Source: Candidatus Saccharimonadota bacterium (GTDB taxonomy: Bacteria > Patescibacteriota > Saccharimonadia > Saccharimonadales > Saccharimonadaceae). Taken from it: a stretch of DNA of 64,000 bases. Shown here piece by piece: positions 1 through 51,030 of this stretch. The stretch lies in the NCBI GenBank assembly GCA_017404795.1, contig JAFRBR010000005.1, forward strand, positions 129-64,128. The letters run 5' to 3'. Every line of letters begins with the position of its first letter. Position 1 is the first letter of the stretch. Position numbers and translations under genes: made by a program. The notes beneath the pieces were generated by a model, which saw only the letters and a program-made list of their open reading frames with translations, had not been told where the DNA came from and did not search any database.

Positions 1-1
1 C

Positions 2-295
2 AATACTTTACCAGCTAATTACGATAGTAGCTCCAGCCCATACTACAATGGTTCCACTGAAGCCGGCCCTGTAGACAAACTAATCAGAGCCTTTCCTAAC
101 AACTTCGTCTACTCCGGCAACTTCAATACGGCGTCGGCGTACAGTCGGGGTAGCAGCGGGTACTATCGGTCGTCTTCGGCGGACGCTAGCAACTATGCCT
201 ACTACCTGCATTTCACCTCCACGGGCGTCTACCCAGGGACCAGCAACAACGGTAAGTACTACGGTAGGACAGTCCGTTGCTTATTATCTAGCTAG
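2..295 (+). CDS. 3' end (partial) of a FISUMP / Fibrobacter succinogenes major paralogous domain protein with CLec-like C-terminus
   Basis: Open frame from base 2 to TAG 293-295 reads ...IRAFPNNFVYSGNF...YYRSSSA...AYYLHF...GKYYGRTVRCLLSS*, matching the FPNNF..SG / YWSS / G.SVRC FISUMP tail. Not in the ORF track because its start lies outside the window. Confidence 0.8.
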   Translation, partial: NTLPANYDSSSSPYYNGSTEAGPVDKLIRAFPNNFVYSGNFNTASAYSRGSSGYYRSSSADASNYAYYLHFTSTGVYPGTSNNGKYYGRTVRCLLSS

Positions 296-326
296 CTCCT
301 AGCCCCCACTGTAGTAATTTTTACAA

Positions 327-378
327 TGTCGCAAACTGTCGCAAAAATTGTCGCAAACTGTCGCAAGTGTGTTATAAT
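327..378 (+). promoter_or_regulatory. Four direct repeats TGTCGCAA (327, 337, 349, 359) abutting an extended -10 box (TG-T-TATAAT 370-378) of the fic gene; probable operator
   Basis: Seen directly; spacing 10/12/10 nt. ATG follows 6 nt after TATAAT. Confidence 0.7.
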
Positions 379-50038: not shown

Positions 50039-50290
50039 ATGAAATACCAAGTCACAGTTAAACCTGGTTCATCACAAGAAAAAATCATCGAGGTCGCACC
50101 TGCAACCGATACTTCTGCTGGCGAACTTACAGTCTATCTTCGGGCCAAGCCCCACGATGGCGAGGCCAATACTGCTCTTATTAAGTTACTTTCCAAGCAT
50201 TTCAAAATTGCTAAAACCAATATTCAGATTACTCGCGGCGCCCATTCTCGCGTCAAGATTGTCGAATTTCTCTACCTTGACTCAGGCTAA
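50039..50290 (+). CDS. DUF167 (YggU/UPF0235) family protein
   Basis: VTVKPGS, RAKPHDGEAN.ALIKLLS.HF, I.I.RG..SR.K. Confidence 0.9.
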   Translation: MKYQVTVKPGSSQEKIIEVAPATDTSAGELTVYLRAKPHDGEANTALIKLLSKHFKIAKTNIQITRGAHSRVKIVEFLYLDSG

Positions 50291-51030
50291 CTATGACAGT
50301 GAAACTGGGGTGTTGTCTGCCGCTCTATCTAGCGTAACTGCTTTGACTGACCAACGTGACGGTGAAACCTATGCGGTAGCTCGTCTGGCTGACGGTAATT
50401 GTTGGATGATAGAGAATCTACGTCTTGATGCCGAAGACACCCTTGGCGACACCAACAAGGTTTTAGCCCAACACTAATCGTGATGGTATTAATTCGACCG
50501 GCATAAATCTTATCGTCAGTCGCAACGCTAATAATGATTATGCTCAATGGTATAGCTATGGTAATTATTACACTTGGGCTGCTGCTATAGCTAGTATAAT
50601 CCCATATGATGGTGCTAATACTCAAACAGACGGCTATACATCCGAAACCGCAGGCACCTCTCTTTGTCCCGCTGGTTGGCAACTACCTTATGGTAGAAAT
50701 ACGGGTAATGGCGCCACCACTAAAGGCTTCTCCTACCTTGATATTCAAATGGGCGGTACCGGCACGTCTATCAACGCATCCACCCCCGGCATAGAATATC
50801 GTTCCAATATGTGGCGTAGCTTCCCAAACAATTTTATCCAATCCGGATTTTTCACTGCAACATCGGCGCGAAGCCGGGGTGTTACTGGGATTTATTGGTC
50901 GTCAACAGCGAGCGGCTATAATTATTCATATTCTTTTTATATTGACAGCTTAAATGTTTCCCCAGGTACGAGCAATGGCATGGTCCCGAGGTCGGGCAGC
51001 ACTTCTATCCGCTGCCTCACCAGTCCTTAA
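50271..51030 (+). pseudogene. 5'-truncated, internally deleted FISUMP gene
   Basis: Frame A: LTDQRDGETYAVARLADGNCWMIENLRLD, stop at 50477; frame B from 50467: YGNYYTWAAA, CPAGWQLP, FPNNF, YWSST, SIRC. No start codon or promoter of its own. Confidence 0.85.

What the first reader, a model, noticed from the sequence alone, without database searches (positions are those of the whole stretch)
104..295. FISUMP C-terminus with a DGR variable-region codon signature
Seen: in the 59 codons from 104-280 only 2 end in A, versus 8 of the 34 preceding codons. Scaffold codons are A-free (TCG, GCG, CGG, GGG, CTG, TTC, GTC), and intervening codons look like AAY derivatives (AAC, TAC, AGC, GAC, ACC, TAT, CAT). 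Established: DGRs mutate template adenines in C-terminal CLec-fold regions and are common in CPR. No reverse transcriptase or template repeat is in this window, so this would be a remote target, or its DGR lies to the left. The usual YWSS reads YRSS (CGG).
Basis: partly seen in the sequence, partly recalled or inferred. Interest (0 to 1): 0.65.

Follow-up and report, generated by a model that had tools for sequence, protein, structure and literature searches.

The report
Remote DGR variable region, rarely rewritten
The flagged stretch is a real variable region of a diversity-generating retroelement: it ends a surface-protein gene in a tiny gut Saccharibacteria genome and is rewritten from a template lying beside a reverse transcriptase on another contig, a well-known kind of system that here seems to rewrite this copy only rarely.

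Summary
The observation and the interpretation both hold. Window 103-298 is 89% identical to a non-coding template repeat (TR) at C23:95172-95367 of the same genome. That TR sits 70 nt from a DGR-type reverse transcriptase (RT).

- **Adenine bias.** 18 of the 20 TR/VR differences fall on TR adenines (P=9e-9).
- **Cassette (DGR1).** The order is target gene, 277-aa accessory, RT, then an inverted TR with its own terminator. It serves four variable regions (VRs): one in cis and three elsewhere, of which the window is one.
- **Target protein.** It is a 624-634-aa signal-anchored protein whose C-terminal FISUMP domain (TIGR02145) passes the curated cut-off.
- **Turnover.** The window VR is identical in 9 of 10 assemblies and in four runs. 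A second allele, differing at 26 TR-adenine sites, exists at the same locus. The cis VR differs in three of three assemblies.

I read it as a genuine but rarely rewritten, probably recombination-captured remote target. This is a new member of a known kind. The genome holds four such cassettes and at least eight VRs in 0.69 Mb.

The parts
2..295 (+). 3' end (97 codons) of the DGR target gene. The full gene is 624-634 aa in other assemblies. Its 5' part is missing from this genome because the contig starts 128 nt before the window.
   Evidence: ORF list. Full-length copies are L022:1037-2911 and L023:1007-2911. TIGR02145 FISUMP scores 48.2 bits against a cut-off of 41.65. For the fragment, Pfam Fib_succ_major stays sub-threshold at 21.3 bits against 33.9.
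103..298 (+). Variable region (VR): the stretch homologous to the template repeat at C23:95172-95367.
   Evidence: BLAST in the own genome gives 89% identity over query 103-298.
119..269 (+). Mutable part: from the first to the last TR-adenine position seen to vary among the VR alleles of DGR1. In the window allele the differences run from 140 to 260.
   Evidence: Table of 50 variable sites across 7 alleles. In the TR, 20 of 62 codons are AAY, and A stands 29, 25 and 4 times at codon positions 1, 2 and 3.
167..167 (+). Non-adenine mismatch T->C (TGG->CGG, Trp->Arg in the YWSS motif), specific to the window allele.
   Evidence: The second allele at this locus (L029) and all the other VRs keep TGG. 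Trp stands there in 82 of 93 family members.
250..250 (+). Non-adenine mismatch T->C (AAT->AAC, synonymous), shared by both alleles of this locus.
   Evidence: The TR has T at this position in all 7 samples.
270..291 (+). Invariant 3' stretch, CAGTCCGTTGCTTATTATCTAG, identical in the TR and in all four VRs. It is the candidate IMH-like 3' boundary.
292..326 (+). 3' flank that departs from the DGR1 type. It has three T->C changes and then no homology. It lacks both the GATTCCCGGGAATC palindrome and the GGGGGTCC-N4-GGACCCCC hairpin, and it resembles the 3' flanks of other FISUMP paralogues.

Best explanation
Window 103-298 is a variable region of a diversity-generating retroelement, DGR1 of this genome. 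It forms the last ~65 codons of a signal-anchored 624-634-aa FISUMP-domain protein, presumably on the cell surface.

The template repeat lies on another contig at C23:95172-95367. It is read from the strand opposite to the RT gene, as a separate transcript that ends at its own hairpin-plus-T-run terminator. The DGR-type RT, probably together with the 277-aa accessory protein whose C-terminal four-helix bundle resembles Avd, copies that RNA into cDNA and misincorporates opposite template adenines. The cDNA then replaces the VR, anchored at the invariant 3' stretch (window 270-291).

The cassette serves four VRs: one in cis and three elsewhere, including this one. This copy has been rewritten at least once, because two alleles exist at the locus and differ at TR-adenine sites. 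It nevertheless turns over much more slowly than the cis VR. Its 3' end is recombinant, it lacks the hairpins that follow the other VRs, and it has picked up non-adenine substitutions. I take it to be a rarely hit, partly decayed remote target.

Shown: the TR/VR pair, the adenine bias, the RT type, the gene order, the alleles and the depths. Inferred: transcription of the TR, the role of the accessory protein, the homing mechanism, surface exposure and the ligand-binding role.
For: - **TR and three further VRs in the own genome**.
- **Adenine bias.** 18 of 20 differences are at TR adenines, P=9e-9. The other VRs score 19/19, 17/17 and 21/24.
- **RT.** It is a 410-aa ORF with IGNLTSQ and YVDDF. 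Pfam RVT_1 gives 5e-14. The best solved-structure match is 8ub7, E=2e-18; the sister entry 8ubb of that set is titled 'Diversity-generating retroelement ribonucleoprotein reverse transcriptase'.
- **Terminator on the TR strand** at L008 9414-9434, with the tail TTTTTTATCT.
- **Architecture.** The same gene order with an inverted TR recurs in all four RT paralogues of the genome.
- **Accessory protein.** The model's C-terminal helices match Avd 4dwl_D (prob 0.99, TM 0.74) and the S23-IVS family entries 2gsc and 2rld.
- **Second allele.** L029 is a different allele at the same locus: 27 differences to the window allele, 26 of them at TR-adenine sites. It coexists about 1:1 with the window allele in run X1 (unitig depths 6.46 and 6.51, flank 15).
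- **Slow turnover.** The window allele is identical in 9 of 10 assemblies and present in 4 of 4 runs.
- **Fast cis VR.** The three cis alleles from three assemblies all differ, at A sites only. The G000 cis allele is found in only 1 of 4 runs although its flanks are present in all.
- **Homing footprint.** The cis alleles of G000 and L033 share sites 16-58 and differ from site 79 on, which is 3'-anchored partial rewriting.
Against: - **Remote VRs in general are static.** The two other remote VRs (C5, C9) are just as static across runs X1-X4. C5 has intact hairpins and no non-adenine mismatch, so missing hairpins cannot be the sole reason for the stasis.
- **T147C.** It is shared by both alleles of the locus, yet a 3'-anchored homing tract from today's TR (T in 7 of 7 samples) should have reset it.
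- **Sampling.** All samples seem to come from one or two projects and hold near-clonal strains. Only assembler unitigs could be laid, not reads, so low-frequency variants are invisible.
- **No expression data.** No RNA run was found.
- **CLec fold.** It was not confirmed: Foldseek against the PDB found nothing for the domain model.
Confidence: 0.85

Rival explanations
1. Fossil or imported VR. The locus is never homed directly. Its C-terminal part, with whatever allele it carried, was copied in by ectopic recombination or gene conversion from the actively diversified cis target gene or another paralogue. The two alleles would then reflect two such imports followed by ordinary point mutation.
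For: - The first 141 nt of contig C24 are identical to the cis gene, while the 90 nt just before the VR are closer to C5 and C9. That is a mosaic.
- The 3' flank is of the type found after non-DGR1 FISUMP paralogues at C20:34712 and C2:11807.
- In run X5, a related strain carries at the same flank a FISUMP end with many non-adenine differences to the TR (18 differences over 105 nt). The DGR1-type VR at this locus therefore looks recently acquired.
- Both alleles carry T147C, which today's TR cannot write.
- Scaffolds join the same C-terminal half to different N-terminal halves.
Against: - Neither allele matches any known allele of the other three loci. Shared derived states stay near chance: 1-8 identical bases out of 7-12 sites that are derived in both.
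- The 22-nt invariant 3' stretch is intact and the ORF is intact.
- Trans action on non-adjacent targets is established for DGRs (Wu et al. 2018, PMC5758913).
Confidence: 0.15
2. A fully active target, diversified as often as any DGR VR. The apparent constancy would be an artefact of sampling near-clonal populations from one project and of assemblers that drop rare variants.
For: - Two alleles coexist about 1:1 in X1 and both are present in X4.
- Only unitigs were available.
- GC-rich inverted repeats are found in only 34% of DGRs, so their absence need not matter (PMC5758913).
- Arg, Leu, Gln and Cys occur at the Trp position in other family members.
Against: - In the same runs and assemblies the cis VR does change, so the sampling can detect turnover.
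- The window allele sits at 77-105% of flank depth in X2-X4.
- T64C and T147C have survived, although each homing event from today's TR would erase them.
Confidence: 0.12
3. Not DGR-related. The A-poor third positions and the AAY-like codons would simply be the codon usage or paralogue divergence of FISUMP genes.
For: FISUMP family members share the Asn/Tyr/Ser-rich C-terminal motif.
Against: - A non-coding near-copy with A at the variable positions lies next to an RT.
- The differences fall at A with P=9e-9.
- The 34 codons just upstream in the same gene do not show the bias.
Confidence: 0.01

Closest known systems
Legionella pneumophila DGR (target LdtA), that is Wu et al. 2018 target category 'd' / VR class CLec2 (DUF1566 / DUF823 / Fib_succ_major), PMC5758913
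   Same: The VR lies at the C-terminal end of a surface-anchored protein whose VR overlaps Fib_succ_major and DUF1566 (Lcl_C) motifs. The Pfam matches are weak and mixed, exactly as that paper describes. The template uses AAY codons, mutagenesis is adenine-specific, and the element is chromosomal rather than phage-borne.
   Different: The host is a 0.69-Mb Saccharibacteria genome. The accessory protein is 277 aa with an extra N-terminal domain. The TR lies downstream of the RT and is inverted. The target has a signal-anchor-like N-terminus and an InlB-type repeat; no lipobox was tested. This VR lacks a GC-rich inverted repeat.
Treponema denticola DGR (TvpA plus six remote targets)
   Same: One RT/TR serves several target genes, some far from the cassette. 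The remote VRs match the same TR with A-only differences (PMC5758913).
   Different: The Treponema element uses an HRDC accessory gene and a CLec/FGE-sulfatase-type target. Here the accessory is Avd-like and the target is FISUMP. The distances cannot be measured because the genome is in 27 contigs.
CPR/Patescibacteria DGR clade (Paul et al. 2017; clade 2 of Roux et al. 2021, PMC8144416)
   Same: Cell-encoded DGRs are enriched in CPR genomes. The host here is a Saccharibacteria genome: family members are named Candidatus Saccharibacteria by NCBI.
   Different: That clade is described as mostly aquatic and, in Wu et al. 2018, as tending to have a single target. This one comes from a gut metagenome, has four VRs per cassette and four cassettes per genome. 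I did not place the RT in a tree, so clade membership is untested.
Bordetella phage BPP-1 DGR (Mtd, Avd, TR, bRT)
   Same: The RT is the closest solved homologue of this RT and shares the IG(N/S)LTSQ motif. The accessory C-terminus resembles Avd in fold. The cis VR shows 3'-anchored partial rewriting. Three of the four VRs carry a hairpin after the VR.
   Different: The gene order differs: target, accessory, RT, inverted TR, against mtd, avd, TR, brt. The target fold family is different, and there is no phage context.

Membership tests
Diversity-generating retroelement (variable region of a target gene) | A TR/VR repeat pair whose mismatches fall almost only on adenines of the TR | tested here: met
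   18 of 20 mismatches over 188 nt fall on TR adenines, P=8.9e-9. The other VRs score 19/19, 17/17 and 21/24.
Diversity-generating retroelement (variable region of a target gene) | A DGR-clade reverse transcriptase close to the TR ([I/L]GxxxSQ motif, YxDD) | tested here: met
   A 410-aa ORF lies 70 nt from the TR and carries IGNLTSQ and YVDDF. Pfam RVT_1 gives 5.2e-14. The best PDB match is the RT chain of 8ub7, from the 8ub7-8ube set of DGR ribonucleoprotein structures, at E=2.3e-18. No phylogenetic placement was done.
Diversity-generating retroelement (variable region of a target gene) | VR at the 3' end of an ORF, with template adenines at codon positions 1 and 2 (AAY) | tested here: met
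   The VR ends at the stop codon, 293-295. TR adenines stand 29, 25 and 4 times at codon positions 1, 2 and 3, and 20 of 62 TR codons are AAY.
Diversity-generating retroelement (variable region of a target gene) | Accessory gene (Avd, HRDC, MSL or CH1) in the cassette | tested here: inconclusive
   A 277-aa ORF lies between the cis target and the RT and is conserved in all four cassettes. It has no Pfam, NCBIfam or PDB sequence match. In the AF2 model (pLDDT 62) the C-terminal four helices match Avd 4dwl_D with prob 0.99 and TM 0.74, but at E=0.39.
Diversity-generating retroelement (variable region of a target gene) | IMH-like 3' boundary shared with the TR, followed in the VR only by a GC-rich inverted repeat | tested here: not met
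   This VR has only a 22-nt invariant stretch (270-291). The extended homology, the GATTCCCGGGAATC palindrome and the 8-bp GC hairpin are present after the cis, C5 and (in part) C9 VRs but absent here. The repeat is not universal: 34% of DGRs have one (PMC5758913). This therefore lowers the claim of efficiency, not the claim of membership.
Diversity-generating retroelement (variable region of a target gene) | Population-level diversification confined to TR-adenine sites | tested here: met
   Two alleles exist at this locus with 27 differences, 26 of them at TR-adenine sites. They coexist in runs X1 and X4. Only two alleles were seen in 10 assemblies and 4 runs, and reads were not available.
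FISUMP domain (TIGR02145 / Pfam PF09603 Fib_succ_major) | Score above the curated cut-off of the family model | tested here: met
   For the full-length protein P0001, TIGR02145 scores 48.2 bits against 41.65. Pfam PF09603 stays below its cut-off at 24.7-28.5 bits against 33.9. The window fragment alone scores 21.3 bits.
C-type lectin (CLec) fold of DGR targets | Structural similarity of the VR-bearing domain to solved CLec-fold DGR targets (Mtd, TvpA) | tested here: inconclusive
   The AF2 model of residues 350-624 has pLDDT 76, rising above 90 over the last 120 residues. Foldseek against the PDB gave no match with E below 0.6. The CLec2 assignment rests on Wu et al. 2018 only.

The most novel reading that the evidence does not exclude
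This Saccharibacteria genus carries its own DGR sub-architecture: target, then a two-domain accessory protein with an Avd-like C-terminus, then the RT, then a convergently transcribed and self-terminated TR. In this genome it is amplified to four paralogous cassettes with at least eight VRs in 0.69 Mb. The cassette would write strongly in cis and only sporadically in trans. Remote VRs would arise by recombination between paralogous FISUMP genes and then decay. That would give a natural series of target sites of graded efficiency (cis, C5, C9, window) for working out what a DGR needs in a target.
Probability: 0.3. Interest if true: 0.55.

Novelty: new member of a known kind. Interest (0 to 1): 0.38.

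Why it matters
The finding shows that a codon-level signature read by eye can point correctly to a DGR target whose template and RT lie on another contig.

Biologically, it documents a gut Saccharibacteria genome that spends four RT cassettes and at least eight variable regions on one family of FISUMP proteins that carry an N-terminal signal anchor. These are the likely contact proteins of an episymbiont; that role is an inference.

The contrast between a cis VR that changes from sample to sample and remote VRs that stay fixed is a usable natural experiment on DGR target choice. It is also a caution for surveys: a TR/VR match with adenine-only differences is not proof of current activity.

Tried and rejected
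- **Read-level variation could not be checked.** All six DNA runs are held only as Logan unitigs. A 30-nt invariant stretch separates the last variable site from the unique flank, so alleles cannot be phased to loci by k=31 unitigs. I used depth bookkeeping instead.
- **No RNA run holds the cassette**, so TR transcription and its strand are untested.
- **One neighbour look-up failed.** The exact-match look-up of the gene next to the C5 VR found nothing, so that locus has no cross-assembly comparison.
- **Foldseek on the FISUMP domain model found nothing**. Foldseek on the accessory model gave only weak E-values.
- **Hairpins as the cause of stasis: rejected as the sole cause.** I considered that the missing hairpins explain why the window VR is static. 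C5 has the hairpins and is just as static.
- **Strain variants of one locus: rejected.** I considered that the four VRs are strain variants of a single locus. Their downstream flanks and neighbouring genes differ, and all are at full depth together in single runs.
- **A second TR with C at position 147: not found.** The own genome and seven sample copies of the TR all have T.

Full report
**1. Observation**

The frame 2-295 (+) is open from the window's first bases and stops at TAG 293-295. Within those 59 codons A stands 17, 18 and 2 times at codon positions 1, 2 and 3. YRSS with CGG is present at 167-169.

**2. The template and the RT exist, on another contig**

The window is contig C24:129-64128 of a 0.69-Mb, 27-contig genome. 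A search of that genome with window 1-300 gave four further copies.

- Three of them (C23:97694-97991, C5:5289-5586, C9:17094-17391) cover the whole query.
- The fourth (C23:95172-95367) covers only query 103-298, which is exactly the flagged stretch.

The short copy is non-coding and carries AAC or AAT wherever the coding copies vary. A 410-aa ORF ends 70 nt from it. That ORF has IGNLTSQ and YVDDF and matches Pfam RVT_1 at 5e-14. Its best solved relative is the RT chain of 8ub7 (E=2e-18, IGSLTSQLFANVY aligned to IGNLTSQLLSNIY). That entry belongs to the 8ub7-8ube set of DGR ribonucleoprotein structures (title seen).

No RT lies on the window's own contig.

**3. Adenine bias**

| VR | Differences to the TR | At TR adenines | Non-adenine changes |
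|---|---|---|---|
| Window | 20 in 188 nt | 18 (P=8.9e-9; A is 58 of 188 bases) | T64C (window 167, Trp->Arg); T147C (window 250, synonymous) |
| Cis (C23) | 19 | 19 | none |
| C5 | 17 | 17 | none |
| C9 | 24 | 21 | three |

In the TR, 20 of 62 codons are AAY, and its adenines stand 29, 25 and 4 times at codon positions 1, 2 and 3. This is the textbook DGR design.

**4. The cassette**

On C23 the order is: cis target gene (VR at its 3' end), a 277-aa ORF, the RT, then the TR. The TR is inverted relative to all three genes, so its adenine-bearing strand is the strand opposite to the RT. On that strand it is followed by an 8-bp hairpin and the tail TTTTTTATCT (L008 9414-9434). A promoter-like site with an extended -10 lies about 220 nt upstream. 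I infer a separate TR transcript that converges on the RT gene. Wu et al. 2018 (PMC5758913) already note that the TR and the RT can be on different strands.

The 277-aa protein has no sequence match in Pfam, NCBIfam or the PDB and only five homologues in the large protein collection. Its model (pLDDT 62) ends in four helices. Their best confident fold matches are the S23-IVS/Avd family: 2gsc, 2rld and Avd 4dwl_D (prob 0.99, TM 0.74), but with weak E-values.

The genome has three more RT paralogues, 46-49% identical, on C19, C12 and C4. Each has the same order, an accessory paralogue and an inverted TR, with A-specific TR/VR pairs of 20/21, 16/16, 33/34 and 31/34. That makes four cassettes and at least eight VRs. 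In the genus, 19 of 24 other species carry one to three such RTs. Only 1 of 16 other genera of the order has one.

**5. The target protein**

The 5' part of all four DGR1 target genes is missing from this genome. The contigs break in a 141-mer that the paralogues share.

An exact-match look-up of the neighbouring Fic protein retrieved the same locus from ten metagenome assemblies, four of them with a complete gene of 624 or 634 aa. The protein has these parts:

- a hydrophobic N-terminal signal or anchor;
- an InlB-type repeat (Flg_new, sub-threshold);
- a C-terminal FISUMP domain that passes the curated cut-off (TIGR02145, 48.2 bits against 41.65).

More than 700 relatives exist, and many are named Candidatus Saccharibacteria. 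[quoted passage not shown] A structural test of the CLec fold failed to give any match.

**6. Is this VR being rewritten?**

*Window VR.* It is letter-for-letter identical in 9 of 10 assemblies, both non-adenine changes included. The tenth assembly (L029) has another allele at the same locus, with the same unique flank. The two alleles differ at 27 sites, 26 of them TR-adenine sites, and L029 has TGG at the Trp codon.

In the unitigs of four runs of one study, the window allele is present in all four:

| Run | Window allele depth | Flank depth |
|---|---|---|
| X1 | 6.46 | 15 |
| X2 | 27.9 | 36.1 |
| X3 | 12.9 | 12.3 |
| X4 | 14.1 | 17 |

In X1 a second unitig of depth 6.51 carries the diagnostic bases of the L029 allele, and X4 has both alleles as well.

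*Cis VR.* It differs in all three assemblies that span it, at A sites only. The G000 cis allele is found in only one of the four runs although its flanks are present in all. Two cis alleles share sites 16-58 and differ from site 79 on, which is the footprint of 3'-anchored partial rewriting.

*Other remote VRs.* C5 and C9 are as constant as the window VR.

On this time scale, then, the cassette writes in cis and only rarely in trans. One caveat applies to all of this. The samples appear to come from one or two projects, and only unitigs could be laid, not reads.

**7. Peculiarities of the window VR**

*3' flank.* Homology to the TR ends about 30 nt earlier than in the other VRs. After the invariant 270-291 stretch come three T->C changes and then unrelated sequence. 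The palindrome GATTCCCGGGAATC occurs after the cis, C5 and C9 VRs, and the hairpin GGGGGTCC-N4-GGACCCCC after the cis and C5 VRs. Both occur nowhere else in the genome and both are missing here. The flank instead resembles the 3' flanks of other FISUMP paralogues at C20:34712 and C2:11807.

*Related strain.* In a related strain (run X5) the contig that carries the window-specific flank holds a FISUMP end with many non-adenine differences to this TR.

*Mosaic upstream sequence.* The upstream sequence is identical to the cis gene for 141 nt and then closer to C5 and C9.

Together these three points suggest that the DGR1-type VR reached this locus by recombination between paralogues.

*T147C.* It is unexplained. 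It is shared by both alleles of the locus, while the TR has T in all seven samples. An older TR version, patchy conversion or paralogue conversion could each account for it.

*W->R.* This change is not necessarily damaging. Trp stands there in 82 of 93 relatives, but two unrelated members also have Arg.

**8. Verdict**

The stretch is a DGR variable region and a non-adjacent target of a cassette on another contig. Its distance from the cassette is unknown because the genome is fragmented.

The kind is well known: DGRs in CPR bacteria, FISUMP/DUF1566-class targets, remote targets and TR/RT on different strands are all in the literature. I therefore rate it a new member of a known kind.

Modest added interest comes from four things: the fourfold cassette amplification in a 0.69-Mb genome, the two-domain accessory protein, the conserved inverted self-terminated TR, and the cis-versus-trans difference in turnover.

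Noticed in passing
G000 contigs C19:43685-46417, C12:9284-11925, C4:24233-26939 and C11:418-676 (outside the window): There are three further complete DGR cassettes, with RTs 46-49% identical to DGR1. Each has the order target, accessory paralogue, RT, inverted TR, and each has A-specific TR/VR pairs. That makes four cassettes and at least eight VRs in a 0.69-Mb genome. 19 of 24 sister species have 1-3 such RTs.
   Followed up: partly
window 327-378: Four copies of TGTCGCAA start at 327, 337, 349 and 359 (spacing 10, 12, 10). They lie directly upstream of a TATAAT at 373-378 and of the fic gene at 385-1440 (Pfam Fic 5.7e-19, with weak HTH matches at its C-terminus). This looks like an operator array for autoregulation.
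   Followed up: no
window 50157-51030 (+): A stand-alone FISUMP gene between uvrB and lysS is split by one frameshift near 50480. Its C-terminus has the YWSS..VRC motif, but no TR in the genome matches it. It is either a pseudogene or an assembly error.
   Followed up: partly
L008 11698-11900 (C23 cis VR) versus L033:114-524: The cis VR alleles of two samples are identical at variable sites 16-58 and differ from site 79 on. This is the classical footprint of a 3'-anchored homing tract with a variable 5' end.
   Followed up: yes
L010 7098-7300 (C9 VR): The C9 VR carries three clustered non-adenine changes (CTG AAT -> TTA TAC). It keeps the palindrome but has lost the GC hairpin, and it is identical in three assemblies and four runs. 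It is a second slowly decaying remote target.
   Followed up: partly
L022:1037-2911 versus L023:1007-2911: Assemblies join the same C-terminal half and VR to two different N-terminal halves and two different upstream genes (a sigma-70 gene or an LPG-synthase gene). This is either real paralogue mosaics or chimeric scaffolds across the shared middle of the gene family.
   Followed up: no
L008 11500-11700 (between the cis VR and the accessory gene): A roughly 150-nt GC-rich run of hairpins follows the cis VR: GGGGGTCCGCAAGGACCCCC, GCGGGCGCCATAGCGACCGC..., CCTTGCCCC-N7-GGGGCAAGG and AGAGCGTGG-N9-CCACGCTCT. Its first 100 nt are shared with the C5 locus. It may be related to the GC-rich palindromic elements noted earlier in this genome.
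   Followed up: no
run X2, laid on L008 9300-9329: In run X2 the summed unitig depth is fully accounted for by the TR, C5, C9, the window VR and a foreign species. The cis VR has no unitig at all although its flanks are at 34x. Either many low-depth variants were dropped by the assembler, or the allele is less than 80% like the TR.
   Followed up: partly
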